Assembly (NCBI GenBank): GCA_964446735.1
Contig: CAYUQB010000001.1
Span: forward strand, 27,892 to 91,891
Direction of reading: 5' to 3'
DNA from: an uncultured Candidatus Saccharibacteria bacterium
GTDB taxonomy: Bacteria > Patescibacteriota > Minisyncoccia > Phycocordibacterales > Phycocordibacteraceae
Length of the DNA stretch: 64,000 nt
Shown here: in pieces, positions 18,735 through 54,090 of the stretch
Layout of the letters: each line of letters begins with the position of its first letter
Position numbering within the stretch: the stretch's first letter is position 1
Position numbers and translations under genes: made by a program
Notes under the pieces: generated by a model
Told to the model about the DNA's origin: nothing
Database searches by the model: none
Seen by the model: the letters and a program-made list of their open reading frames with translations, nothing else

Positions 18735-18766
18735 GTTCGAATTCAGCTAGAGGTGCGCGGTCAGAC

Positions 18767-19870: not shown

Positions 19871-20012
19871 GTGAGGTGCTCCCTCTAGCTGAATGTTATA
19901 GAGCAATCGGGCTGTGGGGCCCTTGCCCAGAGTGATATGACCATATTTTTGGGAGTCTTGCAATGTACGCGAGAACGGCGCCTTGTGGGCGCCGTCTGCA
20001 AATCAAGAACAT

Positions 20013-20465: not shown

Positions 20466-20530
20466 TGCTGTCCCTCCCGAAACAATGAATGGCGCGCACG
20501 CGCCGTTCTCCTAGCGGGGACAATACCACG

Positions 20531-41266: not shown

Positions 41267-42253
41267 CTATGGATTTGATTCAGCAAAATGATCGAGCGTG
41301 CGGTCGACGAGCACGTCCACATCTCTAAATCGACCTTCACGAGTCGAACCGAGCACCACTACCGCAACTGGATGGTTGATACCAACATCAAATACCACCA
41401 CTAAATTGCCTCCCGCCAGGTCAGTGAATCCGGTCTTTGAAAGTAATGGGTTCGGAATATGCACAATGCCTTGGTTGGTATTCGGGAGCGTATGAGTGTT
41501 GCCTCGACTGTCACGGATAGTAACCGACGATTCAATGGTAGAGCGCGCAATAGTGGGAGCTTCTTTCAAAAGCGCACCAGAAAGCTTCGCAACATCGAGT
41601 GCTGATCCGTATCCGCCTGAGACACTCTCACTGACATCAAGGCCCGTGCCGTTAAGTGCGTAGGTACGGGTCAGTCCCATGGCAGCAGCGGCGCTCGCGA
41701 GTAGTCCACGGTCATTTGTCCGACTCTCCCGTGCCGCTACCTCGGCAATTGCAGCTGCTGCGTCATTGGACGATGCGACCAGAGCGTACCGTGCAAGGTC
41801 CTCCACGGAAAACGTCTCTCCTTCGGTAAGTCCGCTATCACCCTCAGCGGCAAGCGCAGATGCGGTGATGGTAATGCGCGATTCAGGATCAAGCGCGGTT
41901 GCTGCAGCATAGGTCGTGAGAAGCTTCGTCAGTGATGCCAGTGGAAGCTGGTCATCGGCATTCTTCTCGAAGAGGGTGCGCCCGTACGCCAGATCGTAGA
42001 CGACCGCTGCGTGTCCGATAAGTGAAAGTTTGTCATATGGGCTTGGGCGCGGCGGGGTCGTTGTTGCTTCCGATTGATGGGGGAGCGTCTTGGAGAGTTG
42101 TGTGCGACCATTCCCGAGTATTGGGATCATCATGATGCCAAAGCCGATGAGGCCCAGCGCTGCCATCACACCTGCCCCTGCTTGTCGACGCTTATTACGC
42201 ACCTCAAGACGCTTTACGAGTTCTGCCAAATCTGGATGTTCAGCGCCTTTCAT
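41267..42253 (-). CDS. D-alanyl-D-alanine carboxypeptidase (serine-type, S11/PBP5-like)
   Basis: N-terminal TM; SxxK (ASLTKLLT), SxN (SSND) and KTG (KTGFT) active-site motifs. Confidence 0.75.
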   Translation of the reverse strand: MKGAEHPDLAELVKRLEVRNKRRQAGAGVMAALGLIGFGIMMIPILGNGRTQLSKTLPHQSEATTTPPRPSPYDKLSLIGHAAVVYDLAYGRTLFEKNADDQLPLASLTKLLTTYAAATALDPESRITITASALAAEGDSGLTEGETFSVEDLARYALVASSNDAAAAIAEVAARESRTNDRGLLASAAAAMGLTRTYALNGTGLDVSESVSGGYGSALDVAKLSGALLKEAPTIARSTIESSVTIRDSRGNTHTLPNTNQGIVHIPNPLLSKTGFTDLAGGNLVVVFDVGINHPVAVVVLGSTREGRFRDVDVLVDRTLDHFAESNP

Positions 42254-42798
42254 ACTTCTTCAGCCTCACTTTTGGCTTCTTCAGCCGAAATTGCACTCGT
42301 GAACTCTGCATAGCGTGGCAAGTCTTCCTTCTTTGAAACCCCAAGATGTGCCAATGCATCAACGGTTGCTTTGTATCGCGCTCGTCGTTTGTCGTTAGCG
42401 TCCTCGGTGCGCTCAATGAGTCCTCGGAGCGTGAGAGATCGTATCGCAGCTGCCGAGTTTACTCCGCGCACCCAGTCGATCTCACCACGTGTCGCACTAC
42501 CCCGGTATAGGATCATGGCAAGCGTCTCAAGGCTTGCTTTCCCCAAATCTCGTGACAACTCGCTTTCCCGGAGCTTCTTCACTACCGTACTCGCTTCCGC
42601 TGCGGTACGTACCTCAAGCTCGTCTTCAGTGGCTATAAGCGCAAGACCACTTTCAGACAGCGTTCGATCGAGCTCGGTGATAGCTTCATGCAAATCCTCC
42701 TTGGAGAGGTCGAGTATCTTGGTAAGTCGCGTCGTAGGAAGCGCCTCGCCGGCGGCAAAGAGTATAGCGAGAAGCCGGGCGGAATTGGTAAGCGCCAT
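42250..42798 (-). CDS. scpB: segregation and condensation protein B
   Basis: Tandem winged-helix ScpB architecture; overlaps the upstream gene by 4 nt; follows scpA. Confidence 0.8.
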   Translation of the reverse strand: MALTNSARLLAILFAAGEALPTTRLTKILDLSKEDLHEAITELDRTLSESGLALIATEDELEVRTAAEASTVVKKLRESELSRDLGKASLETLAMILYRGSATRGEIDWVRGVNSAAAIRSLTLRGLIERTEDANDKRRARYKATVDALAHLGVSKKEDLPRYAEFTSAISAEEAKSEAEEV

Positions 42799-42854
42799 AG
42801 TCTCTACAGGATACCGCTTTACCGGGGCATCGAGAACCCCTTTCTGTCCCCGTA

Positions 42855-43595
42855 TTAGCCGTACCGCGGTGTTGCCGGCGCAGTATTCGTGATGCGGATA
42901 TCTGCAAAGGTGTCGTGTTGCTGTGCATCGACACTCCCCTGCTTCACGAGCTCAAGGAGTGCTAGGAATGACACGATGACTTCTACTCGCTCACTCGATC
43001 CCGCTGAGAACTCCTTAAAGGACATAGAAAGCTTTTGCTGAACACGTCCCAAAAGCCGCTCCATCATTTCTTCGATTGTGATCATGGTGCGCACCCGAGC
43101 TTCGGGAAGCTTTTCTTCTTTCTCAAGGGCAGCGAGCGCATCCGCGAGCGCCGATTCCAAATTCTTAAGAGAAAGATCGCCACTCGGTGCAAAGATTGGT
43201 TCAGGAGAACGCTCCCCTGCCGATACCATGACGGACCGCCCGAATATTCTTCCCAGCTCTCGCATCATTTCGCGCACCCGCTCATATTCAGCAAGTCTGC
43301 GCTTCAGTTCCTCAACGTCACTTTCTTCTTCCTCGGAAAGCTCAAGCTCTGGGATGAGAGACTTGGACTTAATGAGAAGCAGGGTCGCAGCAACGCCAAT
43401 GAACTGCGCCGCATCCTCCATAGGAAACTTCGCCTGGGTACGCACGTGTTCGATATAGTCATCGGTTACCTGCGAAAGCGATATCTCGTTTACGGAGAGT
43501 TTGCGCTTTTCGATCAGTTCAAGCACCAATTCGAACGGACCTTCGTAGGATTCCGTTCGGAGATGCAATCCCGAGTCTTTTATTTCGAGTGCCAT
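42855..43595 (-). CDS. scpA: segregation and condensation protein A
   Basis: 246 aa ScpA/kleisin-like (FEGPFELVLELIEKRKLSVNEISL). Confidence 0.8.
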   Translation of the reverse strand: MALEIKDSGLHLRTESYEGPFELVLELIEKRKLSVNEISLSQVTDDYIEHVRTQAKFPMEDAAQFIGVAATLLLIKSKSLIPELELSEEEESDVEELKRRLAEYERVREMMRELGRIFGRSVMVSAGERSPEPIFAPSGDLSLKNLESALADALAALEKEEKLPEARVRTMITIEEMMERLLGRVQQKLSMSFKEFSAGSSERVEVIVSFLALLELVKQGSVDAQQHDTFADIRITNTAPATPRYG

Positions 43596-44989
43596 TGCTC
43601 GATAAATCGTATCAAGAGACGGACTGGTGCGCCTGCCGCTCCTTTGGACAACTCCTCTCCTGGTGCAGACGTCATGCGTGGAGCGATATCAAGATGTGCC
43701 CATGGACACTCAAGTTCTTTAGCGAATTGCCAGAGAAAGATGCCTCCCTCAATAGCACCTCCGTATCTCCCAGACTGACCCGTTCCGATGTTGGTAATAT
43801 CGGCGAACGTGCCCTGGATGGCAGGTTCATACTCGTCCCAGAGTGGGAGCGGCCAGACATAGTCGCCACTCTCTTCTCCGAGCTCTTGAAGCTGCTTTGC
43901 GAGCTTCTCATCACGGCTCATCACGCCGCTTGCATAGAGGCCAAGTGCAGAGAGCGCTGCACCGGTAAGTGTTGCGGCATCAATGACTACCGCAGGCTTG
44001 AGTTTCTTTGCATAGGTAATAGCGTCGGCGAGAACGAGTCGTCCTTCCGCATCCGTGTTAAGTACCTCGATAGTTTTTCCGGACATTGAACGAAGGATGT
44101 CGCCAGGACGGTAGGCTTCGTTGCCGGGCATATTTTCGGCAGATGGAATGAGGGCAATAACGTTCTTCTTCAATTTCAAACGCGCTGCAAGCGCGATCGT
44201 ATGTATGACCGCTGCCGCTCCCGACATATCCATGTGCATCTCATAGATGGAGGTTGAAGGTTTCAGATTGAGTCCCCCCGAATCGAACGTGATTCCCTTG
44301 CCGGCAAGTACGATCGGAGCCCCAGAGGCACCACGGTATTCCATGATGGTGAACGTGGGCGGATAGGTGGAACCTTTGCCCACTCCTAAAAGCGCACCCA
44401 TACCGAGTTTCTGCATCTGTGCGACGGTAAGAGTCGTGACTGTGATGGGGAGTCCTTTGGCTGCAAGCTTTGCCGCCTGTGCGAGCCCTTTCGGGGTCAT
44501 GTCGCCTCCGGGGGTATTAGCAAGTTCACGAGTCCTGTTCACTTCTTGTCCGACGGTTTGCCCTACCTTTGCTGCCTTCTCAATGCTCGCGGTCCACTGA
44601 CCATACACGAGTATCTCTTCAACCTCAGTCCACCCCTCTTTTGGTTTCGATTTAAATCTCTTGTACTCAAAATTCGCCATCTCATATGCTTCAGCGGCAA
44701 GGCGCGCAAGTTCTTCCGGAGCAACGCGTTCCATACCCTTCATCAGCCAGGGCGAGTCAGCAAACGAAACAGCGATCTTCCGTTTCTTGAATGACTTTGC
44801 CGTAGTGATTACGGAACGACACAGGGTGATGAATGTACGACGGGTGAGCGGTGTCGCTACACCGATCTCAATCATCTCAACACCGTTTTCACGCACCAAT
44901 CGCCTCACTCCCTTCTCCTTCACGAACACGATTCGCGCATGGGTTTTTGGTGCCTTCTCGATACTTCCTTTACTGAGAGTAATTTTCAT
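43580..44989 (-). CDS. pepA: leucyl aminopeptidase (M17 family)
   Basis: NTDAEGRLVLAD and GAALSALG...VIDAATLTGA M17 metal-binding signatures. Confidence 0.8.
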   Translation of the reverse strand: MKITLSKGSIEKAPKTHARIVFVKEKGVRRLVRENGVEMIEIGVATPLTRRTFITLCRSVITTAKSFKKRKIAVSFADSPWLMKGMERVAPEELARLAAEAYEMANFEYKRFKSKPKEGWTEVEEILVYGQWTASIEKAAKVGQTVGQEVNRTRELANTPGGDMTPKGLAQAAKLAAKGLPITVTTLTVAQMQKLGMGALLGVGKGSTYPPTFTIMEYRGASGAPIVLAGKGITFDSGGLNLKPSTSIYEMHMDMSGAAAVIHTIALAARLKLKKNVIALIPSAENMPGNEAYRPGDILRSMSGKTIEVLNTDAEGRLVLADAITYAKKLKPAVVIDAATLTGAALSALGLYASGVMSRDEKLAKQLQELGEESGDYVWPLPLWDEYEPAIQGTFADITNIGTGQSGRYGGAIEGGIFLWQFAKELECPWAHLDIAPRMTSAPGEELSKGAAGAPVRLLIRFIEQWHSK

Positions 44990-44994
44990 AGTTA

Positions 44995-46338
44995 TTAACT
45001 CGGCGTATCGGTTGAAAGGAGCTGGTCAATGCGATTGATGTCACGCGGGAAGAGTGTCGCTTCCTTTACGTTTGCGAGACCGAGGAACTTTGCTGTGAGT
45101 CGTTCAAGTCCCATACCCCATCCGCCATGTGGCGGCATCCCGTATTTGAAGGCCTGCAGATAGAACGAGAATTGGTCGGGATCGAGTCCCTTCATGCGTA
45201 TGCCGTCGATGAGGTTCTGGTACTCATGACGTCGCTGGCCACCCGTGGTTATTTCAACTCCTCGGAACAAGAGGTCGAAGCTTTTAGTGAACCCTGGATC
45301 CTCCGGATCCTCCATGGTGTACATGGGACGCTTAGCAACGGGATAGTGGGTGATGAATATAAAATCTGAGTCGTGCTCTTTCTTTGCCCACTCACAGAGC
45401 CAGCGTTCATCCTCGGGCTCAAGGTCCGGCTCCTGTCGATTGTCCTTCCCAGTTTCTGTAAAGATGATCTCCTGCGCTTCACGAAGCTTGAGACGCGGTA
45501 TTTCATTTGGCACTTCAGGTATCTCTGCGCCAAGGAGTGCGAATTCAGCAGCAACTGTCTTCTTCAAGTGTTCTGAAACATGCTGCATGAGTCGATTCTC
45601 AACCTGCATCACATCGAGGTGGCTTTCAATGAACCCCATCTCCGCATCGAGAGAGGTGTATTCATTGAGGTGCCGCGAAGTGCTGTGCTTCTCGGCGCGA
45701 AATACGATACCGCTCGAATAGACACGCTCGAACACCCCTACCATGATTTGCTTATACAGTTGAGGTGAGGTAGCAAGATGTGCGGTCTTGCCATAGAAAT
45801 ATGGAACCTCAAACACTTCCCCGCTTCCTTCTGCGTCGTCTCCAATCAGTTTCGGTGCTTGAAATTCAGTAAATCCATCGCTGTTAAGAAATTCACGGTA
45901 TGCCTTTAGGATCTCACTCTGTACCTTGAACACCGCACGTGCACGCTTGCTGCGAAGCGTGAGCGGTAAATGATCCAGGTACGTATCAAGATTAAGTTCT
46001 CCTTCAAATTCAAATGGCACTGGCTCGGCTTCTGCGAGCACCCGCATGCCAGTTATTTCGAGTTCGATATCACCGTTCTGCTTATCCGCTTGTATGTTCT
46101 TCTCCGGGCGTTGATTCACGATCCCTTCGACTGCAACTACGAATTGATTGCGTACCTCTTTTGCAGTATCGATAGCGGCTGAACCGGGAAGCACGACTCC
46201 CTGGACATATCCTGTGGCGTCTCGGAAATCAAAAAAGACGAGCTTGCCCTGATCTCGACGCACGTCTACGGAGCCGGCAACAGATACGGTCTCTCCTACA
46301 TGGCGAGCTAGCTCGCCTATCGCTATACGGCCTTGCAT
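44995..46338 (-). CDS. aspS: class IIb aminoacyl-tRNA synthetase, short aspartyl/asparaginyl type
   Basis: 447 aa; OB-fold N-terminus; class II motifs 2 (FRAEKHSTSRHLNEYTSLDAE) and 3 (GGWGMGLERL); Asp versus Asn specificity cannot be decided by eye. Confidence 0.8.
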   Translation of the reverse strand: MQGRIAIGELARHVGETVSVAGSVDVRRDQGKLVFFDFRDATGYVQGVVLPGSAAIDTAKEVRNQFVVAVEGIVNQRPEKNIQADKQNGDIELEITGMRVLAEAEPVPFEFEGELNLDTYLDHLPLTLRSKRARAVFKVQSEILKAYREFLNSDGFTEFQAPKLIGDDAEGSGEVFEVPYFYGKTAHLATSPQLYKQIMVGVFERVYSSGIVFRAEKHSTSRHLNEYTSLDAEMGFIESHLDVMQVENRLMQHVSEHLKKTVAAEFALLGAEIPEVPNEIPRLKLREAQEIIFTETGKDNRQEPDLEPEDERWLCEWAKKEHDSDFIFITHYPVAKRPMYTMEDPEDPGFTKSFDLLFRGVEITTGGQRRHEYQNLIDGIRMKGLDPDQFSFYLQAFKYGMPPHGGWGMGLERLTAKFLGLANVKEATLFPRDINRIDQLLSTDTPS

Positions 46339-46368
46339 AGCTACTAAAATACCACGAAAGCGCGAGTA

Positions 46369-47322
46369 TCAGGCCACGCCAATAGCACGGCGCACGTCCC
46401 GCATTTTTTGATCAGCTCGACTACGCGCTTCGTCTCGCCCTCGAGCCAGGACCGCTTCAACCGCACCGGAATCCGCATCAAGTGCTTGGTATCGCTCGCG
46501 CATAGGGGCAATGAAGGCATTGAGGTCTTCAACTAACGCTTCTTTAAGAATCTTGTACTGACCCTTGTTCTCTTCATACAGCTTCTTCAATTCGCTCTCA
46601 CTCTTCAACAGCTTATGAATGGCGTAGACGTGTTCTGGGTACTTACCAGAAGAGTCGGTGACTATACTCATCACTGCCTTTGTGATCTCTTCGCTCGAAG
46701 CAAACAGAGGAATGGTGTTGCCGTAGCTCTTACTCATTTTTTGACCGTCGGTTCCTGGGACGACTGCAACCGCAGGCAGGATTCGTTCTTCCGGTAGTTT
46801 GAAGGTCTCGCCGAAGATACGATTGAATTTCTGTGCCGTATCGCGTGCATACTCTACGTGCTGTTTCTGGTCTTGTCCGACCGGTACGACAGCACTGTCG
46901 TACAGGAGAATGTCGGCTGCCATGAGCATGGGGTAGTTAAAAGTACCTACGTTTATTTCTTTATCCCGTGCCTCCGCATCCTTGAATGCATGTGCGCGCA
47001 TGAGGTACGGCATGGTGGTGATCGTGTCGAAAATCCAGGCGAGCTCGGTATGTGCTGGCACGTCTGATTGCTTGAAGATGGTCACTCGTTCGGGATCCAA
47101 TCCGATCGCTAGAAGCGTGCGGGCGAGCTCCATCGTAAGTGCGTGCATCTGGGAGGCATCCTGGATGAAGTTAAGTGCGTGATAGTCCGCGATCATGAGG
47201 TAGCAGTCGTGCTTCCCTTCCTCCTGAAGGTCGACCCACTGCTTGAGTGCCCCGAAATAATTACCAATATGTGCAGTCCCCGTTGGCTTCATGCCGGACA
47301 GGAGAATAGGCTTCTCTTTCAT
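46369..47322 (-). CDS. trpS: tryptophanyl-tRNA synthetase
   Basis: HIGH (TGTAHIGNYFG) and KMSKS (KMSKSYGN) motifs; 317 aa. Confidence 0.9.
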   Translation of the reverse strand: MKEKPILLSGMKPTGTAHIGNYFGALKQWVDLQEEGKHDCYLMIADYHALNFIQDASQMHALTMELARTLLAIGLDPERVTIFKQSDVPAHTELAWIFDTITTMPYLMRAHAFKDAEARDKEINVGTFNYPMLMAADILLYDSAVVPVGQDQKQHVEYARDTAQKFNRIFGETFKLPEERILPAVAVVPGTDGQKMSKSYGNTIPLFASSEEITKAVMSIVTDSSGKYPEHVYAIHKLLKSESELKKLYEENKGQYKILKEALVEDLNAFIAPMRERYQALDADSGAVEAVLARGRDEARSRADQKMRDVRRAIGVA

Positions 47323-47400
47323 GGGAAAACGATAGCATAAAAAGGAGCCGCGCCTTGGGGGGCGCGGCAGATCTCTTCCAGTTTGTTGGTGGTTCTTCCG

Positions 47401-47736
47401 CTAGTCCTCTGCGAGGAGGACAGCGAAAGTATTTGGCCCTTCACGCACCGTCATGAAGACGCCATGAAAGTCCACGTCGTGCGCCACTTGCGCTGAGATG
47501 ATGTCATAGGTGTGGTGGCCAGTTGACCTGGCCAGACTGGCCTCCAGCTCAGCGATTTCTTCGTTGTACTGGCGTCGGCGATAGCAAGCCGATTCGTATT
47601 CGCTTATCGCCGACTTGTCGTCTGCCAGTACGTTCGGTTCGAGCAGCCTGATCTGGGCTTCCAGAACTTGGAGCTCGGACCGACAAAGGGCAAGGCGTTC
47701 TGAGTCGCCTTTTAGCACCAATTTGCGTTCGTCCAT
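47401..47736 (-). CDS. hypothetical coiled-coil protein
   Basis: Start MDERKLV preceded by GGGAGcggacc; the N-terminal 114 codons of the listed ORF 47401..48078 look like read-through. Confidence 0.4.
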   Translation of the reverse strand: MDERKLVLKGDSERLALCRSELQVLEAQIRLLEPNVLADDKSAISEYESACYRRRQYNEEIAELEASLARSTGHHTYDIISAQVAHDVDFHGVFMTVREGPNTFAVLLAED

Positions 47737-47829
47737 GGTCCGCTCCCACTTGAAGATCGGTACCGGTACCGTGCCGGCATGATTCGTAGAACCTATCACT
47801 AAGGTCCTAGGTTGCCAACTAAAGGAACC

Positions 47830-47850
47830 AAGATCCCTATTCGGGATCTT
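47830..47850. promoter_or_regulatory. perfect 8-5-8 inverted repeat AAGATCCC-tattc-GGGATCTT (candidate operator or recombination site)
   Basis: Read directly; lies between the coiled-coil gene and the recombinase locus; a palindrome GGTACCGGTACC (about 47773) and a tandem AGTCCCCCA x2 (about 47918..47937) are nearby. Confidence 0.3.
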
Positions 47851-48080
47851 TCGTGTGCACCGTGGCTTGAGTCTTATCGAACTTCTGTAGGTGTATGTGT
47901 TGTAGAGAAGTCCCCCAAGTCCCCCAAGTCCACCACTCGAAGATTGCAGCGGTGTCGACTGAACACGGGCGGCTTCCCTCAGCCCGTGTTCAGCCACAAG
48001 ACATCCGCTGCAAATACTTGTTCCGGCTTGGCACATTCGTCCGCCTACCGTAGGGCCAGGAATGGCGCGAGCATGCACGC

Positions 48081-48254
48081 ATGCCCGAGCTACCCGGCGA
48101 TCTTCTCCTCGACCGCTACCTACCCGATGCGACGAATGAGGAACGTAGTGAGGCGCGTCAAAACCTCTGTGCCTTCGCCAAAGCTATGAAGAACCTCGGC
48201 GCAGAGCATCGGAACTACCGCTGGCAGATCGAGGCGCTGTCCGATGACGTATGA
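48081..48254 (+). CDS. small ORF (57 aa) translationally coupled to the serine recombinase
   Basis: MPELPGDLLLDRYLPDATNEERSEARQNLCAFAKAMKNLGAEHRNYRWQIEALSDDV; its stop overlaps the recombinase start as ATGA; below the 60-aa cutoff of the ORF track; weak SD. Confidence 0.35.
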   Translation: MPELPGDLLLDRYLPDATNEERSEARQNLCAFAKAMKNLGAEHRNYRWQIEALSDDV

Positions 48255-49660
48255 AGCCACACCTCGCCTACATCCGGGTGTCGACCGTCAGACAGGGTGA
48301 GCAGAACTCGTCACTGGCTGAGCAGCGGGCGTCCATCACGGCATACGCGCAGCGCCACAACCTCCAAATCGGCGAGTGGTTTGAGGAAATGGAGACCGCC
48401 GCGAAGAACGGCCGGCTCCAGTTCAATCGGATGATGACCCTGCTGCGTACCAAGCGGCACGGTGGCCTGCTTGTTCACAAGATCGACCGCAGCGCGCGCA
48501 ACCTCAAGGACTGGGCTAGGCTCGGTGAGCTCATCGATGAGGGCATCCCGGTACACTTCACGCATGAGAGCCTCGACCTCTCTTCCCGCGGCGGTCGACT
48601 GGCAGCCGACATCCAGGCGGTCGTGGCTGCCGACTTCATCCGGAACCTGCGCGATGAGGTGAAGAAGGGCATGTACGGGCGCTTGAAGCAGGGTTTCTAT
48701 CCCCTGCCCGCGCCGCCCGGCTACCGGGACCATGGCTCCGCAAAGCATAAGACCATCGACCCATTGAAGGGTCCCATCGTCCGCTTCGCCTTCGAGGGAT
48801 ATGCGACCGCCAACTACACGCTCGACACCATGCGAGAGGAACTCTGGCACCGGGGGCTCCGTGGGCCGAACGACAAGCCGCTCTCAAAGAACTCGATCGC
48901 AAGCACGCTCCACAACCCCTTCTACTACGGCGTGATCAAGATCCGCCGGAGTGGTGAGACCTTCATCGGTGGCCACGAGCCTCTCATTACGAAGAAGCTC
49001 TACGACCAGGTCCAGGAAGTCCTCAGTGGTCGGGCGGCGCTCAGAACGACCCACCACGACTTTGCGTACCGCACGCTCATCAGGTGCGAGCACTGCAAGA
49101 ATTTCGTCGTGGGTGAACGACAAAAGGGTCACGTCTATTACCGCTGCCACACCAAGGGCTGTCATCAGCGATCCCTCCGGGAGGATAGGATCGAGCAAAC
49201 CATCTTCGACACCCTCGCCAACCTACAGATGCCGGATGGCGAACTGATGGACCTCCGCGCCTGCGCGAAGCACTACGAGACCGAAGCACGGAAGGCCCGC
49301 AGGGAGACGGTCACCAAAGCTGAGCAGGAGCTGTTCCTCGTTGGCACCCGGCTCGCGAAGCTGACTGACGGGTACCTCGATGGCGAGATCGAGAGCGGTC
49401 TCTTCCGCGAGCGACAGACTGCCCTCGTCGAGCGTCAGGCGGAGCTGCGGCAGATCGCTGAGGAGAAGCCGGGCGATGCGGAGCTCGATCAGACCGCTGA
49501 AATGCTGAGCCTTGTGCTCGAGGCGCGCGCGAAATTCGCCGTCGCGACACCAGAGGAAAAGCGGCACCTGCTTCAGGCACTGGCGAGCGAGCTGACCGCG
49601 CGAGAGGGCGAGTTGGTACTCACGTTGCGGAGCCCGTTTGATCGAATCGCAACGACTTAG
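48251..49660 (+). CDS. large serine recombinase (resolvase/invertase catalytic domain + recombinase domain + zinc ribbon + coiled coil)
   Basis: Catalytic YIRVSTVRQ (Ser nucleophile), resolvase domain, Cys cluster CEHC...YYRCHTKGC, C-terminal coiled coil; 469 aa; about 62% GC. Confidence 0.85.
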   Translation: MKPHLAYIRVSTVRQGEQNSSLAEQRASITAYAQRHNLQIGEWFEEMETAAKNGRLQFNRMMTLLRTKRHGGLLVHKIDRSARNLKDWARLGELIDEGIPVHFTHESLDLSSRGGRLAADIQAVVAADFIRNLRDEVKKGMYGRLKQGFYPLPAPPGYRDHGSAKHKTIDPLKGPIVRFAFEGYATANYTLDTMREELWHRGLRGPNDKPLSKNSIASTLHNPFYYGVIKIRRSGETFIGGHEPLITKKLYDQVQEVLSGRAALRTTHHDFAYRTLIRCEHCKNFVVGERQKGHVYYRCHTKGCHQRSLREDRIEQTIFDTLANLQMPDGELMDLRACAKHYETEARKARRETVTKAEQELFLVGTRLAKLTDGYLDGEIESGLFRERQTALVERQAELRQIAEEKPGDAELDQTAEMLSLVLEARAKFAVATPEEKRHLLQALASELTAREGELVLTLRSPFDRIATT

Positions 49661-50640
49661 GGAATGAGCTCCCACGGACTGATGGGTGACCAACCATCAC
49701 GCGGAAGATTGTAGTGGTTATACACTGAGCCGTGACGGCATGTGCTGTAGACCATCGCGCCAGCTTTCTGCAAAGCGCGCACAACTGCGCGTCGAGGATG
49801 CTTTGTCGTGCCAGGCGAGGAGATGTAGGCAACTTCTGGAGCAAGGTGGGTTATTAACGCGCGATCAAGATTGCGGCGGCTCCCGTGATGCGGCACATCC
49901 AGCCAGTTCAACTTACTGATGTCCTTCACTGTCATCGCACCCCGCAATGCGCGTTTTCCGGCGTCTCCGGTGAACAAGTATTTTCGGCCATGCCCTTCAA
50001 TCAAGATAATGATACTGCTGTTGTTCACTGGCTTGGTATCTATAGATGGGTCGTCGATTATCGAAGTTCCAGGGATCGCTGCGACCGCTGCATCGGTTGT
50101 ATCGGAGTGGAACCACGCGCTAACGACTTCGTCGTTTAGCCAGATATCCCGAAACAGTCCTTCGCTTGGCCCAAGTACGTATACCGACCATCCGCCCCAG
50201 TCATAAATCGAATCAGGGCTTGCAAATAAGGTGTGCACGCTTGTCCCCTGCGCCTGCGCTGCGCTCTGTAGTGCGTCCATCCTTTCGAAGGCGGAGGTGA
50301 ACACACTGTATTCATCGCTTGTGAGCGCCGTTCGGGCCTTTTTTAACAAAAGAGGTTCGGAAATGACTCCTCTCGGGTCGTTCAGTATCAGGTGAGCAAC
50401 GTTATGGTTCTCAAGCAACGACACAAGACCGCCGATATGATCAGTGTCGGGGTGGGTGCTTACTACAATATCAACGCCGTTGTCGTGATATTGGCTGACA
50501 TGATTCAACAGAGGCTCGCTGTTCGCCGCGGCACCTCCGTCGATTACGATTACCCTGCTGTCTCCGCTTTCGTCTCGAAGTTCGACTACGTGCGAGTCAC
50601 CCTTGCCGACGTCTATCATTGTTATTCCGAGCTGCGACAT
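49657..50640 (-). CDS. metallo-beta-lactamase fold protein (ComEC C-terminal domain-like)
   Basis: HPDTDHIGG (HxHxDH), later WLDVPHHGS, typical of the ComEC/Rec2 MBL module; standalone 327 aa. Confidence 0.7.
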   Translation of the reverse strand: MSQLGITMIDVGKGDSHVVELRDESGDSRVIVIDGGAAANSEPLLNHVSQYHDNGVDIVVSTHPDTDHIGGLVSLLENHNVAHLILNDPRGVISEPLLLKKARTALTSDEYSVFTSAFERMDALQSAAQAQGTSVHTLFASPDSIYDWGGWSVYVLGPSEGLFRDIWLNDEVVSAWFHSDTTDAAVAAIPGTSIIDDPSIDTKPVNNSSIIILIEGHGRKYLFTGDAGKRALRGAMTVKDISKLNWLDVPHHGSRRNLDRALITHLAPEVAYISSPGTTKHPRRAVVRALQKAGAMVYSTCRHGSVYNHYNLPRDGWSPISPWELIP

Positions 50641-50642
50641 AA

Positions 50643-51239
50643 TTAGAGATTTGCGCTTTTAATCAAGGTGTAGGATTGGAGAACCTTCGATCGGTTGTAT
50701 CCAAAGAACCTGGCCCTCCGGTGCAGGAACAAATACGTAAAGAGCACACAAATAGCCGTGGATATGAATATCCACGGCTCATATGCTTGCGTGAAGATTA
50801 GATACGCAGCAAGAAAATCGACTTCGAGACCGAAGGCAACAGCCCATGCTCGGTAGAGACTGTACTGCGCGTTCAGGGCGGCAATCTGGCCCGATGCGTC
50901 CTTGGACAGCACGAGCAAGTAGCAGTGGTTATACACGTCTCGATGCGAAATTTGCCCTAAGGATAGATGCTCCCGTACCACCTCTAAAGTGGCGATTTCC
51001 TCATCTGTATAGGTATCCTTATTCTCCGCTGTGAGAATATTTGAAAGCGACTGGCAGACATGTCCTACGAAATAGGCAGCCAAGATCCACAATATGGCGG
51101 TATCGAGAGTGAACGCCGGCAGCCGCTCAGGAAACAACAACGCAGCGTCCACGTAGACGAGTGCAAGCGCAATTGCGCCGCTCGTCAGGAACGCAACTTG
51201 GTCGTAGAGGCTGAATTTAGAGAGAAATGTGTTTTCCAT
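50643..51239 (-). CDS. hypothetical integral membrane protein
   Basis: 198 aa with N- and C-terminal TM segments; 2 nt upstream of the MBL gene. Confidence 0.4.
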   Translation of the reverse strand: MENTFLSKFSLYDQVAFLTSGAIALALVYVDAALLFPERLPAFTLDTAILWILAAYFVGHVCQSLSNILTAENKDTYTDEEIATLEVVREHLSLGQISHRDVYNHCYLLVLSKDASGQIAALNAQYSLYRAWAVAFGLEVDFLAAYLIFTQAYEPWIFISTAICVLFTYLFLHRRARFFGYNRSKVLQSYTLIKSANL

Positions 51240-51320
51240 GCCGTCACGTGGGCATGACTACAGCATACTCCTCTTCTTCATGAAGGCTAGATCTGGTCGA
51301 AGACCTCCGCCTCCGGCATA

Positions 51321-51360
51321 GTTCGAACTCTCTACAGTAGACCGCAGGTGCGGTTCGAAC
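51321..51360. promoter_or_regulatory. twin GTTCGAAC palindromes 24 nt apart (candidate operator)
   Basis: GTTCGAAC at 51321..51328 and 51353..51360, about 80-120 nt upstream of the membrane/MBL operon start; I could not fold the region into a tRNA cloverleaf. Confidence 0.3.
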
Positions 51361-51366
51361 CCACGC

Positions 51367-51405
51367 AAAAGGCCTCGGAATCATTGAGTCCGAGGCCTTT
51401 TGCTC
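51367..51405. terminator. bidirectional rho-independent terminator
   Basis: AAAA-GGCCTCGGA-atcattgag-TCCGAGGCC-TTTT, a 9-bp perfect stem flanked by an A-run and a T-run; it lies downstream of the tRNA-Tyr 3' end. Confidence 0.65.
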
Positions 51406-51413
51406 CTGTCTTT

Positions 51414-51499
51414 TGGTGCGCCGGGAGGGATTCGAACCCCCGTAGGATAAATCCGCTTGGTTTACAGCCAAGTGCAATTGACCACTCTGCCACCGACGC
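51414..51499 (-). tRNA. tRNA-Tyr (anticodon GUA), encoded CCA
   Basis: Minus-strand cloverleaf: acceptor GCGTCGG/CCGGCGC (one G-U pair), anticodon stem CTTGG/CCAAG with loop CTGTAAA, long variable arm, T-arm GGGGG-TTCGAAT-CCCTC, ...ACCA 3' end; 86 nt. Confidence 0.8.
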
Positions 51500-51504
51500 A
51501 TGAA

Positions 51505-52113
51505 CTACGGCACTATACCAGCTTCGGCTGGCTTTTGGAACGGATTAGGTCCCTCAAACGTAAGCCGAGGAATATTACGATTCACATACTGGTATTCAAC
51601 CCCGTACTTCTCGGCGTAGATCTTATCAGCCGTATCAAATCGTGCCGTGCTCCAGTCAAATCCAAGTGCGGTAGAGACATCTCGGACGTGTTCTTCTGAA
51701 ATACCTTCAATTTCGACAAATGGCTCGAGCCACGGCCACTCGTCAATGGTTATCTCCGCGCCCTGTAGTTTCCAGAGTTCCCGTTTGGTTTCTTGGTAGT
51801 TTTTATCCCGACACCCCAGAAGCCGGAGCAGCTCCTGTCCGCGCTCGAAGTTATCAATGGTAAGGGCGAGTTCTCCTTGATGGTCCATTTGCGAATTATC
51901 ACCTCGCCGTTCCTTGATGCTGAGGGTGATCTTATCACCCTCGTCTCGGATACGAACCCACGCACGAAGCGCGTACTCTTCGTCCGGAGGATATAGGTTC
52001 ACCCGGCGCATAAAGCGTTCTGGATAGATGAGGGTTGCACCCGCATCAGTAAGTCGACGTCTGACCTCGTCTTTATCAACCGGCCAAAACGTTGCTTCCC
52101 ATTCGGTCTCCAT
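51505..52113 (-). CDS. CYTH-domain protein (triphosphate tunnel metalloenzyme family)
   Basis: 202 aa; N-terminal ExExK-like motif (TEWEATFWPV...), repeated acidic beta-strands typical of CYTH (LRAWVRIRDEGDKITLSIKER ... ITIDEW...EIEG). Confidence 0.6.
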   Translation of the reverse strand: METEWEATFWPVDKDEVRRRLTDAGATLIYPERFMRRVNLYPPDEEYALRAWVRIRDEGDKITLSIKERRGDNSQMDHQGELALTIDNFERGQELLRLLGCRDKNYQETKRELWKLQGAEITIDEWPWLEPFVEIEGISEEHVRDVSTALGFDWSTARFDTADKIYAEKYGVEYQYVNRNIPRLTFEGPNPFQKPAEAGIVP

Positions 52114-52115: not shown

Positions 52116-53348
52116 CTATTTCTGCCGTACCAAAAGCTTTTCAGTCTTTCCTTTCTGCAGTACCGCTAGTCCATGGTTGAAATCAGTTGATTCAAGAACA
52201 CGGTCAGTGAGTACGGTATCTCCATTGAGCTTGATTCCCTTTGCGTCCATGAGTCGTCGTGCTTCAGATTTTGACGGTAGGAATTCTGTCAGAGTAAGTG
52301 CGTCGATGATGCTTGCGCCTGGCACCACCGATACCGATGGGACAGAAGCAAAGAGTGCATCCCGATCAGCGAGGGTAAGTGAATCAAAGGGTGCATTTGC
52401 GAAGAGGACTTCAGAGAAACGTTCCGCACGGTCTGCCTCTCCTTTTCCATGCACCAATGTCGTTACTTCCTGGGCGAGTGTCCGCTGTGCGGTACGACGC
52501 TCTGGGTTCCGCCCATGCATTTCAAGCAATGCATCGATCTCACTGGTCGAACGGAATGTATAGAACTTCATGAGCTTGCTCACCTCGCTATCGGGCTGAT
52601 TGAGCCAAAACTGGTAGAACTGAAACGGAGATGTCTTTCGAGCATCGAGCCACACCGCGTTCCCTTCCGATTTTCCGAATTTCCGTCCGGTAGCGTCAGT
52701 TACAAGCGGAATGGTGACCGCGTATGCTTCGCGCCCCTGTTTGCGACGGATAAGCTCCACTCCCGAGAGAAGATTCGTCCACTGGTCGCTCCCACCTACT
52801 TGTAGATCGCATCCATATTTTTGATTCAGTACGAGGTAGTCATAGCCTTGAAGGAGTGAGTACGCGAACTCAGTGTACGAAATACTCTCGTCTGGAGTCT
52901 CGAGCCTTCGGCGGATGATGTCACGCTTCACGAGCTCATTTACAGTGAAGTGCTTTCCAATATCACGTAGGAAATCTATAAGCTTAATTTTGAGAAGCCA
53001 ATCTGCATTATTCACGAGCGTTACCTTGGTACCGATGATGCGCTGCATCTGATCACGGAGCGCTTTGGCGTTCCGGGTGATCAGCTTAGCGTCAGGAAGC
53101 TGACGTTCGCCACTCTCTCGTGGATCCCCGATCATTCCTGTACCACCTCCGACAAGAAGAATGATTCGATTCCCCGCCTGTGCGAGACGGCGCATGAGAA
53201 GAATTACCGCAAGATTACCGGCCTGCATAGAGTCGGCAGAGGGGTCCACACCAAGATAGACGGTTCGAGGTTTGCTGAAGACTTTCTCCAGCTCAGCCGA
53301 GTGGTGCTCGATAAGTCCACGTGCTTTGAGGTCCTCAATGAAGTTCAT
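52116..53348 (-). CDS. tyrS: tyrosyl-tRNA synthetase
   Basis: Start ATGAACTTC (MNFIEDLK); HIGH-type (GVDPSADSMQAGN) and KMSKS (KFGKSEGN) motifs; C-terminal S4-like domain; the listed ORF 52116..53840 has a 164-codon artefactual 5' extension. Confidence 0.9.
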   Translation of the reverse strand: MNFIEDLKARGLIEHHSAELEKVFSKPRTVYLGVDPSADSMQAGNLAVILLMRRLAQAGNRIILLVGGGTGMIGDPRESGERQLPDAKLITRNAKALRDQMQRIIGTKVTLVNNADWLLKIKLIDFLRDIGKHFTVNELVKRDIIRRRLETPDESISYTEFAYSLLQGYDYLVLNQKYGCDLQVGGSDQWTNLLSGVELIRRKQGREAYAVTIPLVTDATGRKFGKSEGNAVWLDARKTSPFQFYQFWLNQPDSEVSKLMKFYTFRSTSEIDALLEMHGRNPERRTAQRTLAQEVTTLVHGKGEADRAERFSEVLFANAPFDSLTLADRDALFASVPSVSVVPGASIIDALTLTEFLPSKSEARRLMDAKGIKLNGDTVLTDRVLESTDFNHGLAVLQKGKTEKLLVRQK

Positions 53349-53430
53349 GCGAAGACTATACCAAGAAATTATGATGCGGCCGATCTCCATACAGAAAGGA
53401 GGGGGTCGAGACCCCCTCCAATCACCCATA

Positions 53431-54090
53431 TCATACGCACAGACAGGTGCCGCCCTCCATGACGTCGAGCAGACGACCGAACGTCGCTTCCTGGTCCAGT
53501 GTGCTGGTGTCCAGGAAGTGCATGTCGGGCGTACGCCGCAGCGGATCGAACGGGCGGGCGCTGTCCGTGGCGTCGCGCTCGGCGAGGCTCTGACGGACCT
53601 CCTCGAGCGTGAGGGTCGGAACCCGAATGGACAGTTGCGCATGGCGGCGTGCTGCACGAACGTCGAGGCTGGCGTCGATGTAGAACTTGCAGCCAGCATC
53701 TGGAAGCAACACTGTGCCAGCGCTCCGCCCGTCCACCACCGCAGACGGGAAGCCGCCAATGACCTGCTCGACCACGGCGAGCATGGCGCGGAGCTGCTCA
53801 GGATTGGCAGCACGTTCCGCTGTGAGGCGACCCAGCTCATCCGAGGCGAGGTCGTCGATTACCTGTTCGTGATAGGTGATGCGGCTGTGTTCGCCATCCC
53901 ATTCATACCGCCAGGAACCTCCGGTGAAGTCCATCTCAGAGATGGCCGACACCAGTTCGTTTTGAACCCCGTAGGTGCAGGCGCGGAAGACGAGCCCCGC
54001 GTCCACATGTGCGAAGCCGTATGACTTCGCAACCATGCGAGCCAGCGTCCCCTTACCGGAGGCGGCTGGACCACAGATCGTCACGTTCAT
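53431..54090 (-). CDS. cmk: cytidylate kinase
   Basis: Start MNVTICGPAASGKGT (P-loop); about 220 aa; about 62% GC, above the backbone. Confidence 0.8.
   Translation of the reverse strand: MNVTICGPAASGKGTLARMVAKSYGFAHVDAGLVFRACTYGVQNELVSAISEMDFTGGSWRYEWDGEHSRITYHEQVIDDLASDELGRLTAERAANPEQLRAMLAVVEQVIGGFPSAVVDGRSAGTVLLPDAGCKFYIDASLDVRAARRHAQLSIRVPTLTLEEVRQSLAERDATDSARPFDPLRRTPDMHFLDTSTLDQEATFGRLLDVMEGGTCLCV

What the first reader, a model, noticed from the sequence alone, without database searches (positions are those of the whole stretch)
47401..49660. Large serine recombinase locus with a coupled 57-aa upstream ORF and perfect palindromes; candidate integrative or invertible element
A 469-aa large serine recombinase has its ATG overlapping the stop of an unannotated 57-aa ORF (…GATGACGTATGAAGCC, ATGA coupling). 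The 57-aa ORF could be an accessory or directionality factor. The locus is about 62% GC, against a lower-GC backbone. Upstream lie an 8-5-8 perfect inverted repeat (AAGATCCCtattcGGGATCTT), a GGTACCGGTACC palindrome, a tandem AGTCCCCCA repeat and a divergent coiled-coil gene. tRNA-Tyr lies 1.75 kb away. I saw no phage structural genes, so this is either a remnant or a minimal element. Its boundaries and att-like sites are unknown; the dyad sites are candidate crossover sites.
Basis: partly seen in the sequence, partly recalled or inferred. Interest (0 to 1): 0.6.

Follow-up and report, generated by a model that had tools for sequence, protein, structure and literature searches.

The report
Serine-recombinase island in a CPR genome
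A small piece of foreign DNA carrying a site-specific recombinase, a conserved but uncharacterised 57-residue partner protein and a candidate anti-phage gene pair sits between the tRNA-Tyr and trpS genes of a tiny-genome (Patescibacteria) bacterium. The kind of element is ordinary; the partner protein is a plausible new recombinase cofactor.

Summary
ORF 48251-49660 is an intact large serine recombinase (LSR). A 57-aa ORF overlaps its ATG by ATGA, GC is 0.62 against 0.54, and the repeats and dyads exist.

Comparison with 80 related Patescibacteria loci shows an ancestral order TyrRS, tRNA-Tyr, TrpRS, with tRNA-Tyr only 30-70 bp from trpS. The window carries about 4.0 kb extra there (about 47335-51360), so this is an insertion at a variable hotspot.

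The insertion is a mosaic of two parts:
- The LSR module, whose relatives (50-58% identity) lie in high-GC bacteria and almost never in phages.
- A membrane-protein plus MBL-nuclease pair (PADLOC PDC-M48B, 1e-39), whose relatives ride on other mobile elements.

The 57-aa ORF is conserved. It belongs to an unannotated family of about 70 aa, found by HMM upstream of the LSR in 10 further modules, with an ATGA overlap in 9 of those. Its predicted fold is a short helix followed by a long helix. I read it as an xis-int-like operon with a cofactor or regulator; this is inferred.

Exact att sites were not found. Inversion is not supported.

This is a new member of a known kind, of moderate interest.

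The parts
47335..51360 (.). Approximate extent of the lineage-specific insertion between the trpS promoter-like box and the tRNA-Tyr terminator. The ends are inferred and good to a few tens of bp.
   Evidence: In relatives L008, L015 and L029, tRNA-Tyr lies 30-70 bp from the TrpRS ATG. The window has 4,091 bp there. The terminator hairpin plus GCGTGG on the tRNA side, and TATCGT..ATG on the trpS side, match the uninterrupted spacer of L008.
47347..47368 (-). GC-rich terminator-like hairpin followed by a T-run, downstream of the 111-aa ORF
47401..47736 (-).
   Evidence: (no Pfam). It has one remote hit in 1.84e9 representatives, and no tblastn match in any related locus searched (80 CPR loci, L003-L005, L086-L091, L094-L138).
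47758..47771 (.). 14-nt palindrome CGGTACCGGTACCG, not above chance on its own
47830..47850 (.). Perfect 8-5-8 inverted repeat AAGATCCC/GGGATCTT; no second copy in the window and no match in the related LSR loci I scanned
47908..47935 (+). Three 9-bp direct repeats (AAGTCCCCC x2, then AAGTCCACC). The only non-coding motif shared with related LSR loci.
   Evidence: TRF. About 27 of 31 nt are shared with L004, and a core is shared with L003, in otherwise unalignable DNA. The pattern GTCC-N5-GTCC-N5-[GA]TCC occurs once, on the LSR strand, in 8 of 10 distinct sizeable LSR loci, against 3 hits in 1.24 Mb of control CPR loci.
47959..47993 (.). Perfect 12-11-12 inverted repeat, extending as an imperfect palindrome to about 47944-48012, 88 bp upstream of the small ORF. 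Best candidate for the recombinase site or an operator.
   Evidence: 0 in shuffles; RNA fold z = -3.06. L004 has an analogous 8-11-8 dyad with a similar 11-nt centre. Other modules have module-specific dyads with 9-13 nt spacers.
48081..48254 (+). 57-aa conserved partner protein (motif PGDLLLDRYLPDA..EER..AR..L), whose stop overlaps the LSR start (ATGA)
   Evidence: 237 relatives, none with a Pfam domain; those named by a source are 'hypothetical protein'; paralogues differ mainly at third codon positions; AF2 pLDDT 87, helix 7-13 plus helix 19-56.
48251..49660 (+). Large serine recombinase, 469 aa. It has all the invariant residues of its clade but lacks the variable C-terminal tail of longer relatives.
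49657..50640 (-). MBL-fold (ComEC-C/LmuA/Avs1a-like) putative nuclease, 327 aa, convergent with the LSR; the two stop codons overlap by 4 nt
   Evidence: PADLOC PDC-M48B 1.1e-39, LmuA 1e-28. Pfam Lactamase_B. Most of the closest homologues (50-64% identity) are 327-328 aa, so the C-terminus is native.
50643..51239 (-). 198-aa multi-pass membrane protein, upstream partner of the MBL gene
   Evidence: Csx27-like, 6.4e-07. MBL homologues elsewhere follow a 165-aa TM protein with overlapping stop and start.
51321..51360 (.). Two GTTCGAAC palindromes 32 bp apart at the tRNA-side edge of the insertion; they are the only two copies in the 64 kb
51365..51403 (-). Hairpin (15-bp perfect arms) directly after tRNA-Tyr: its terminator, also present in relative L008
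   Evidence: (I2)
51414..51499 (-). tRNA-Tyr (GTA), the conserved landmark next to the insertion

Best explanation
The locus is a small mosaic genomic island of about 4.0 kb. It sits in the tRNA-Tyr/trpS spacer, a variable hotspot, of a Patescibacteria (CPR, Paceibacteria/Kaiserbacteria-like) genome.

One part is a horizontally acquired recombinase module, roughly 47.3/47.9-49.66 kb. It holds an intergenic control region with three 9-bp direct repeats and a 12-11-12 dyad, then a two-gene operon: the 57-aa protein followed by the large serine recombinase. The module belongs to a large non-phage LSR clade typical of high-GC soil and water bacteria. In that clade the same operon normally sits beside a divergent P-loop ATPase, an XRE regulator and a roughly 170-aa protein, next to variable, mostly defence-type genes. 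The window copy is a stripped-down version.

The other part (49.66-51.24 kb) is a membrane-protein plus MBL-nuclease pair. It is a candidate anti-phage cassette that travels on unrelated mobile elements.

Proposed mechanism (inferred). The LSR cuts and rejoins two short sites through its Ser nucleophile to integrate or excise the element. The small protein is made in fixed ratio by translational coupling, as in lambda xis-int. It is either a directionality or assembly cofactor, whose long helix could dock on the recombinase zinc-ribbon/coiled-coil region, or an autoregulator binding the upstream repeats or dyad.

Shown: the domain identity and intactness of the LSR; conservation and coupling of the small ORF; the insertion relative to relatives; the mosaic composition; the defence-type homology of the MBL gene.

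Inferred: current mobility, the att sites and the role of the small protein.
For: LSR identity and integrity:
- Pfam triple-domain hit and PHROG integrase 3.4e-75.
- All invariant columns of a 20-sequence clade alignment are present, including R9, S11, D79/R80/R83 and the four zinc-ribbon Cys.

Insertion:
- Among 80 relatives' loci, those that retain TyrRS carry tRNA-Tyr between TyrRS and TrpRS. The tRNA-to-trpS gap is 30-70 bp in L008, L015 and L029.
- None of the five island genes has a tblastn hit in any of these loci.
- The same gap is variable in others (0.5-3.5 kb, unrelated genes).

Foreign origin of the LSR module:
- GC 0.62 against 0.54.
- The best relatives (57-58% identity) lie on contigs of GC 0.58-0.60. 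Named relatives are Alphaproteobacteria and Acidobacteria.
- It is not phage-borne: less than 30% identity to any phage record and one relative in 2.9 million viral contigs.

Small ORF:
- An HMM finds it in front of the LSR in 10 other modules, with a 4-nt overlap in 9.
- 237 family members, none with a Pfam or NCBIfam match.
- Third-position divergence between paralogues.
- A confident helical model.

Mosaic and cargo:
- MBL327 matches PDC-M48B, LmuA and Avs1a models.
- Its 61-64% homologues sit with a TM partner in low-GC MGEs that carry unrelated serine recombinases.
- Relatives of the LSR are followed by SAVED, SMODS, nSTAND+patatin and AAA_13/15/21 genes.

Control region:
- Two perfect dyads against 0.05 expected.
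- The 9-bp repeat motif recurs in related LSR loci.
- Dyads with spacers of about 11 nt lie upstream of the small ORF in other modules.
Against: - No att sites could be defined. There are no flanking direct or inverted repeats above chance and no second copy of the repeat motif or of either dyad in the window.
- No island-free genome of the same species was available; the nearest relative shares 75% TrpRS identity.
- The window lacks the ATPase, XRE and roughly 170-aa partners of the canonical module, which may mean it is no longer functional.
- The window's small ORF has lost or changed the C-terminal tail of the family.
- GC heterogeneity is not unique to this locus.
- Constitutive co-expression of a directionality factor with its integrase would hinder integration unless a second promoter exists; none was found.
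- The small-protein model has no structural match to any solved protein.
- The 9-bp motif also occurs inside coding sequence in some relatives (ATPase 'GDFGDKGD', LSR tails), so it could partly reflect coding.
Confidence: 0.55

Rival explanations
1. Immobile remnant. The LSR module is the decayed end of a once larger element that had the ATPase, XRE regulator and other genes. It has lost one or both att sites and no longer moves. The genes persist by chance or have been co-opted.
For: The canonical partners are absent. There is no recognisable second site. The LSR has the shortest C-terminus of its clade and abuts the next gene. The small ORF has a divergent, shortened C-terminus. L003 shows that such modules do decay: it has a frameshifted second LSR.
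Against: Both ORFs are intact. Every clade-invariant residue is kept and the ATGA coupling is preserved. The GC has not ameliorated towards the host, which suggests recent arrival. The two closest relatives (P0002, P0003) are equally short, so the short C-terminus is a subclade trait.
Confidence: 0.25
2. Self-contained minimal unit carrying an intact site. The small ORF, the LSR and the palindrome at 47944-48012 form a unit of about 1.8-2.3 kb whose own recombination site is still whole, attP-like or a landing pad. It reached this hotspot by another route, or it serves to capture or exchange adjacent cassettes at the LSR 3' end.
For: High GC is confined to about 48.0-49.7 kb. A strong, statistically unexpected dyad lies next to the operon, with an asymmetric 11-nt centre, and L004 has a counterpart. 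Neighbouring genes start within -4 to +40 bp of the LSR stop in the window, L003, L004, L005 and L087. LSR C-terminal tails are hypervariable, as expected if a junction lies at the gene's 3' end.
Against: The dyad arms are not conserved in sequence and the order of dyad and repeats differs between the window and L004. An odd 11-nt spacer is atypical for a site centred on a crossover dinucleotide (established LSR knowledge). Such dyads equally fit an operator or an RNA hairpin. No cassette-flanking repeats were seen in the window.
Confidence: 0.15
3. Invertase or phase-variation switch. The LSR inverts a DNA segment bounded by inverted copies of one of the dyads, toggling expression of neighbouring genes.
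For: Serine recombinases include invertases. The divergent intergenic region is rich in dyads. The JGI annotation of some relatives says 'DNA invertase Pin-like'.
Against: The domain architecture is that of a large serine recombinase, not a roughly 190-aa invertase; the Mpi invertase model scores 32 bits against a cut-off of 272. No inverted-repeat pair flanks any segment beyond chance level. There is no second copy of either dyad in the 64 kb.
Confidence: 0.05

Closest known systems
Large serine recombinases (serine integrases) of integrative elements, such as phiC31, Bxb1, TP901-1, A118 and SPbeta SprA, and their recombination directionality factors
   Same: The same three-domain architecture and catalytic residues. 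The recombinase sits in a small foreign segment. A small accessory gene lies next to it, as with TP901-1 Orf7 or SPbeta SprB (small RDFs; my own knowledge, and PMC12286644 for the diversity of RDFs).
   Different: Less than 30% identity to any phage integrase and no phage genes. The clade is almost absent from viral collections. The partner is translationally coupled upstream, which is not the usual arrangement for LSR RDFs, and it matches no known RDF or Xis family or fold.
Lambda-type xis-int operon (tyrosine integrase systems)
   Same: A small ORF immediately upstream of, and overlapping, the integrase gene. This suggests coupled synthesis of a directionality factor and the enzyme.
   Different: An unrelated enzyme family (serine, not tyrosine). 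The small protein is predicted as helix-loop-long helix, not a winged helix. This is an analogy only.
SCC/SCCmec cassettes mobilised by Ccr large serine recombinases, including defence-carrying SCC-like cassettes (PMC11470126)
   Same: A non-phage, LSR-mobilised island that inserts at a fixed chromosomal hotspot next to a housekeeping gene. It accumulates modules in tandem and carries anti-phage cargo.
   Different: CcrA, CcrB and CcrC models score far below their cut-offs (51-73 bits against 700-900). There are no flanking direct repeats like the SCC integration-site sequences, there is a single recombinase, and the host phylum is different.
PADLOC candidate defence system PDC-M48, and MBL-fold effectors of Lamassu (LmuA), AVAST (Avs1a) and DRT
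   Same: The 327-aa MBL protein matches PDC-M48B over its full length (1.1e-39) and the other MBL effector models. It forms an operon with a small membrane protein.
   Different: The partner does not match a PDC-M48A model; it gives only a weak Csx27-like hit. No ATPase, SMC or NTPase sensor is present, and defence activity is untested.

Membership tests
Large serine recombinase (serine integrase) superfamily | N-terminal resolvase catalytic domain with the Ser nucleophile and conserved Arg/Asp residues | tested here: met
   PF00239 at 1.5e-23 over residues 6-148. R9, S11, D79, R80 and R83 are invariant columns of the clade alignment.
Large serine recombinase (serine integrase) superfamily | Recombinase domain plus Cys4 zinc-ribbon domain C-terminal to the catalytic domain | tested here: met
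   PF07508 at 2.8e-13 and PF13408 at 1.7e-08. C279, C282, C299 and C304 are invariant.
Large serine recombinase (serine integrase) superfamily | Pair of short cognate att sites with partial dyad symmetry around a crossover dinucleotide | tested here: inconclusive
   There is a candidate dyad at 47959-47993, but no partner site and no flanking repeats.
Large serine recombinase (serine integrase) superfamily | Catalysis of site-specific integration and excision | not testable with these tools
   This needs an in vivo or in vitro recombination assay.
Prophage serine integrase | Embedded in a prophage (structural, lysis or replication genes), with close relatives in phage genomes | tested here: not met
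   No phage genes in the island. The best phage match has 29% identity, and only one relative was found in the viral contig collection.
Named LSR equivalogs (XisF, CcrA/B/C) | Score above the NCBIfam curated cut-off | tested here: not met
   XisF 85 bits against 375. CcrB 73 against 900. CcrC 53 against 900. CcrA 51 against 700.
Serine DNA invertases (Hin/Gin/Pin/Mpi) | Enzyme of about 190 aa with a C-terminal HTH, acting on a segment flanked by inverted sites | tested here: not met
   A 469-aa LSR architecture. Mpi model 32 bits against 272. No inverted pair or second dyad copy.
Known excisionase / RDF families (for the 57-aa protein) | Sequence or fold membership in a described Xis/RDF family | tested here: not met
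   No Pfam, NCBIfam, PHROG or PADLOC hit. The AF2 model has no Foldseek match in the PDB.
Known excisionase / RDF families (for the 57-aa protein) | Binds the cognate recombinase and switches its directionality | not testable with these tools
   This needs a complex prediction (AF-multimer 'virtual pulldown', PMC12286644) or biochemistry. Only the genetic linkage is shown.
tRNA-adjacent genomic island | Segment absent from the same site in related genomes | tested here: met
   The relatives are different species (75% TrpRS identity or less), so the time of insertion is unresolved.
tRNA-adjacent genomic island | Flanking direct repeats derived from the tRNA 3' end | tested here: not met
   Only a degenerate T-arm-like stretch, which is not a copy of tRNA-Tyr (D12). 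LSR elements are not expected to make long repeats.
PADLOC PDC-M48 candidate defence system | Component B (MBL-fold protein) | tested here: met
   PDLC04676 at 1.1e-39, residues 14-322 against profile positions 16-348 of 357.
PADLOC PDC-M48 candidate defence system | Component A next to B | tested here: inconclusive
   The adjacent 198-aa membrane protein hits only Csx27 (6.4e-07) and no PDC-M48A model. Homologous cassettes have a 165-aa TM partner.

The most novel reading that the evidence does not exclude
The roughly 70-aa protein family (PGDLLLDRYLPDA..EER motif) is a previously undescribed, obligate cofactor of a large, non-phage clade of large serine recombinases. It would be either a directionality factor or an assembly/regulatory subunit, encoded in an xis-int-like, ATGA-coupled operon. 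It would act through the 9-bp direct repeats or the dyad upstream of the operon. The clade would mobilise or exchange defence cassettes at the recombinase gene's 3' end. The window would document its transfer from high-GC bacteria into a Patescibacteria genome.
Probability: 0.25. Interest if true: 0.65.

Novelty: new member of a known kind. Interest (0 to 1): 0.42.

Why it matters
Three points would make this matter.

1. Cofactors (RDFs) of large serine recombinases are hard to find, because they share no common sequence or fold (PMC12286644). A conserved partner encoded in cis for a clade with thousands of members would give ready-made enzyme-cofactor pairs for genome engineering. It would also give a testable rule for finding more.

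2. In my literature search, no paper combined the terms serine recombinase, Patescibacteria and integrative. This locus is a concrete case of a compositionally foreign recombinase module next to a candidate defence cassette at a tRNA-linked hotspot. It bears on how these reduced genomes acquire immunity genes.

3. Across relatives, defence-type genes start within a few bases of the recombinase stop codon and the C-terminal tails are hypervariable. This suggests where the recombination junction lies.

None of this is surprising in kind. Serine-recombinase islands with defence cargo are already known.

Tried and rejected
1. Flanking att repeats. A repeat search over 46.0-52.5 kb gave only chance-level direct and inverted repeats. 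The best positional candidates were D2 (47939/49704, 13 of 15) and I8 (48007/49972, 15 of 17). I estimate about 19 and 1.5 such matches by chance, and both right-hand copies lie inside the intact MBL gene.

2. Second copy of the small ORF, of the 9-bp repeat motif or of either dyad in the window: none.

3. The 9-bp motif as a probe of viral contigs: 45 hits, none with an LSR or small ORF, so chance level.

4. Reading the intergenic region or cc111 as a relic of an inverted LSR or of the P-loop ATPase gene. Only short, mutually inconsistent tblastn matches appeared (E 0.007-0.4 in an 800-nt target). hhalign gave probability 0.3%. There was no flank similarity to ATPases. Rejected.

5. The two small-ORF copies in L005 and L091 as att-type DNA repeats. 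They differ mainly at third codon positions, so they are paralogous genes and not sites.

6. Fold search of the small-protein model against the PDB: no match.

7. Rfam: nothing in the locus except tRNA-Tyr. Sigma-70 promoter scan: none.

8. Context of the only cc111 relative (P0362): not on record.

9. Metagenome scan with the single LSR sequence: only 3 loci, because the chosen peptide patterns were poorly conserved.

10. Literature: no paper on PDC-M48, and none combining serine recombinase, Patescibacteria and integrative.
Full report
**1. Checking the observation**

ORF 48251..49660 (+) encodes a 469-aa protein with the three domains that define large serine recombinases (LSRs): Resolvase 1.5e-23, Recombinase 2.8e-13 and Zn_ribbon_recom 1.7e-08. 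It also matches the PHROG 'integrase' family at 3.4e-75.

The 57-aa ORF at 48081..48254 ends ...GAC GTA TGA, with the recombinase ATG inside ATGA.

GC of the two genes is 0.617 against 0.538 for the window (z = 2.9, top 3.6% of 1.5-kb windows). A second GC-rich block lies at 17.5-20.5 kb, so the signal is real but not unique.

The other reported features:
- The 8-5-8 inverted repeat at 47830-47850 is present.
- The palindrome is 14 nt, CGGTACCGGTACCG, at 47758-47771. Palindromes of this size are no commoner than in shuffles (22 against 18).
- The 9-bp tandem repeat has 3.1 copies at 47908-47935.
- tRNA-Tyr lies at 51414-51499, 1754 bp from the LSR stop.

The 344-bp intergenic region contains two perfect inverted repeats against 0.05 expected. 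It extends as an imperfect palindrome to about 47944-48012, and the surrounding 201 nt folds with z = -3.06.

**2. Host and insertion**

The exact proteins occur only on one NCBI contig of 516,752 bp and one Logan contig.

TrpRS relatives (75% identity or less) are all Patescibacteria/CPR genomes: Paceibacteria, Kaiserbacteria, Parcubacteria and 'Saccharibacteria' MAGs.

Among the 80 fetched loci, those that retain TyrRS carry tRNA-Tyr(gta) between TyrRS and TrpRS, followed by AspRS, (PepM17) and ScpA. In L008, L015 and L029 the tRNA 3' end is only 30-70 bp from the TrpRS ATG. In the window the distance is 4,091 bp.

None of the five genes in that interval has a tblastn match in any of the 80 loci. 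The five genes are the 198-aa membrane protein, the 327-aa MBL protein, the LSR, the 57-aa ORF and the 111-aa ORF.

The landmarks of the uninterrupted spacer survive on both sides:
- On the tRNA side, a terminator hairpin followed by GCGTGG.
- On the trpS side, a conserved TG.TATCGT..ATG box.

This places the insertion at about 47335-51360.

The same gap is variable in other relatives (0.5-3.5 kb). It holds unrelated genes such as an S8 protease in L006, and a lipase, a deacetylase and MscL in L070, with no integrase. It is therefore a hotspot.

**3. The island is a mosaic**

High GC is confined to about 48.0-49.7 kb. The MBL gene (0.536) and the membrane gene (0.497) are host-like, and the left part is intermediate (0.555-0.56).

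*The LSR clade*
- The LSR search returned 4,768 hits at E<=1e-10. The listed best hits are about 50% identical; the few with names are Brevundimonas, Sphingosinicella, Allosphingosinicella, Phenylobacterium and an acidobacterium.
- The three closest relatives (57-64% identity) lie on contigs with GC 0.56-0.60.
- The clade is essentially non-viral. The best phage-genome match has 29% identity. One plasmid match reaches 45%. One relative was found in 2.9 million viral contigs.
- It scores far below the curated cut-offs for XisF and CcrA/B/C.

*The MBL cassette*
- The MBL protein matches PADLOC's candidate defence component PDC-M48B over its full length (1.1e-39). It also matches the MBL effectors LmuA, RTasMBL and Avs1a.
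- Most of its closest homologues (50-64% identity) are 327-328 aa, so its C-terminus is native even though its stop overlaps the LSR stop by 4 nt.
- In the two homologue contexts I fetched (61% and 64% identity), the gene follows a 165-aa multi-pass membrane protein with overlapping stop and start. Both lie in low-GC (0.38-0.41) mobile contexts. One has three ArdC-like genes, a TraG-like protein and two other serine recombinases. The other is a prophage-like region with a terminase, a methylase and an LSR only 27% identical to ours.
- The membrane-plus-MBL pair is thus itself a travelling cassette of different ancestry from the LSR module.

*The 111-aa ORF*
- It is an ORFan.

**4. The 57-aa ORF is a conserved partner**

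Translating upstream of the LSR in relatives revealed homologues with the motif PGD(L/I)(L/I)LD(R/K)Y(L/M)P.A..EER..AR..L.

A profile search found 237 proteins, mostly 57-105 aa (typically about 70). None has a Pfam domain, and the few that a source names are 'hypothetical protein'. The eight aligned family members gave no convincing Pfam match and no NCBIfam match; the window copy also has no PHROG or PADLOC match.

An HMM of the family finds it immediately upstream of the LSR in 10 further modules. In 9 of these the overlap is the same 4-nt ATGA (gene tables).

Two loci also have a stand-alone paralogue. Paralogue pairs differ mainly at third codon positions, which shows selection on the protein rather than on a DNA repeat.

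AlphaFold2 with a 79-sequence alignment gives a confident model (pLDDT 87) of a short helix (residues 7-13) and one long helix (19-56). It has no structural match in the PDB.

The window copy keeps the conserved N-terminal 40 residues but has a shorter, divergent C-terminus.

**5. The canonical module elsewhere**

In most relatives the operon is preceded, divergently, by three genes:
- a 410-470-aa P-loop protein (GTGKTR, LVLDEAD; no Pfam or NCBIfam family);
- an XRE-type HTH protein;
- a roughly 170-aa protein.

It is followed by variable, mostly defence-type genes: SAVED, SMODS, nSTAND plus patatin, a DEAD helicase and AAA_13/15/21 ATPases. These often start within -4 to +40 bp of the LSR stop.

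One such module lies inside an element that also has a tyrosine integrase, AlpA, a relaxase and a coupling protein.

LSR C-terminal tails are hypervariable. The window, P0002 and P0003 lack a tail.

The window has none of the three upstream partner genes, so it is a reduced version.

**6. Candidate cis elements**

The only non-coding sequence shared with relatives is the 9-bp repeat block. About 27 of 31 nt are shared with L004, and a 16-nt core with L003, in otherwise unalignable DNA.

The pattern GTCC-N5-GTCC-N5-[GA]TCC occurs once, on the LSR strand, in 8 of 10 distinct sizeable LSR loci. Control CPR loci gave 3 hits in 1.24 Mb.

Its position varies. It lies upstream of the small ORF in the window and L004, at LSR 3' ends in L005 and L087, and inside the ATPase gene in L091, L140 and L150, where it encodes GDFGDKGD. 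Its meaning is therefore unresolved: it could be a binding-site array, or partly a by-product of Gly-Asp coding.

The 12-11-12 dyad has a counterpart in L004, an 8-11-8 dyad with a similar 11-nt centre. Other modules carry their own dyads with 9-13-nt spacers 40-250 bp upstream of the small ORF. That pattern fits a protein-binding dyad that co-evolves with its binding protein, either an operator or the recombinase site. An RNA hairpin is not excluded.

**7. Mechanism**

*Shown:*
- an intact LSR with all clade-invariant catalytic and zinc-binding residues;
- a conserved, coupled partner gene;
- an insertion at a tRNA-linked hotspot;
- mosaic origin;
- a defence-type neighbour.

*Inferred:*
- The LSR integrates and excises its module by the standard serine-recombinase mechanism (established knowledge of the family).
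- The small protein, made in fixed ratio with the enzyme, is either a directionality or assembly cofactor, or an autoregulator that binds the upstream repeats or dyad. The lambda xis-int operon is the closest organisational analogy.
- The long helix is a plausible ligand for the recombinase coiled-coil/zinc-ribbon region, where known RDFs act (PMC12286644, PMC11722253).

I could not define att sites. The tools do not allow a complex prediction, and no island-free genome of the same species exists in the collections.

**8. Rivals**

- *Immobile remnant (0.25).* The partners and a second site are missing. However, the genes are intact and the composition has not ameliorated.
- *Self-contained minimal unit with an intact site, or cassette exchange at the LSR 3' end (0.15).* This fits the GC boundary, the abutting neighbours and the variable tails. 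It rests on few loci.
- *Invertase switch (0.05).* Not supported by architecture or repeats.

**9. Verdict**

This is a real LSR-bearing mosaic island in a CPR genome, and a new member of a known kind. The most interesting by-product is the unannotated small-protein family coupled to a very large non-phage LSR clade. That is worth a targeted test. I score interest as moderate (0.42).

Noticed in passing
window 17500-20500: A second GC-rich block (0.62-0.64). It encodes Ala/Pro-rich proteins with hydrophobic N- and C-terminal segments (234, 398 and 150 aa on the minus strand); two of them share a related N-terminal region. It has no link to the recombinase locus.
   Followed up: partly
window 51321-51360: The only two GTTCGAAC octamers in the 64 kb lie 32 bp apart, exactly at the tRNA-side edge of the insertion. 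The first forms a degenerate tRNA T-arm-like stretch (GCGTGGGTTCGAACCGCACC) that is not a copy of tRNA-Tyr.
   Followed up: partly
window 50754-50779: A perfect 12-bp-stem hairpin (AGCCGTGGATAT-TC-ATATCCACGGCT) inside the 3' part of the 198-aa membrane-protein gene. It is one of only six such hairpins in the window.
   Followed up: no
window 51505-52113: A CYTH-domain gene lies between TyrRS and tRNA-Tyr. Among the 80 related loci only L008 has a homologue, and it sits elsewhere. This side of the tRNA is therefore also variable.
   Followed up: partly
L001 (Logan SRR12113420 contig), corresponding to window 41813-51443: The independent short-read assembly of the same organism breaks inside the tRNA-Tyr gene, at the island edge. 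This could reflect population heterogeneity at this site or only an assembly effect.
   Followed up: no
L026 1770-1854: In one related genome the tRNA-Tyr next to TyrRS is on the opposite strand, followed by a 2.1-kb gap before TrpRS. This suggests a local inversion or rearrangement at the same hotspot.
   Followed up: no
L091 4341-7590; L141 7414-11485; L150 6915-11278; L087 8443-11575; L003 1117-3951: A conserved, apparently undescribed five-gene module: a ~170-aa protein, an XRE HTH protein and a P-loop ATPase of ~450 aa (no Pfam or NCBIfam) lie divergent from the small ORF plus LSR. It is usually followed by defence-type genes, and several loci carry two LSR modules.
   Followed up: partly
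L005 14499-14738; L091 7615-7998: Stand-alone paralogues of the small protein that are not followed by a recombinase. One is the N-terminus of a 127-aa ORF. They lie just beyond the LSR or its neighbouring cassette.
   Followed up: partly
L152 2422-13662; L154 145-9959: Homologues of the membrane-plus-MBL pair lie in low-GC mobile elements. One has three tandem ArdC-like genes, a TraG-like protein and a 591-aa serine recombinase preceded by an overlapping 50-aa ORF. The other is prophage-like, with a terminase.
   Followed up: partly
window 52116-53840: The TyrRS ORF is listed as 574 aa because of a long in-frame N-terminal extension of odd composition. The tblastn matches of relatives cover only about 390 aa, so the true start is probably near 53300.
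   Followed up: no
L097, L099, L101, L107, L111, L114, L116, L121, L136 (viral contigs): The 16-nt probe GTCCCCCAAGTCCMCC hit a set of viral contigs as inverted pairs about 90-110 bp apart. This is a repeat family of its own and has no link to the recombinase.
   Followed up: no
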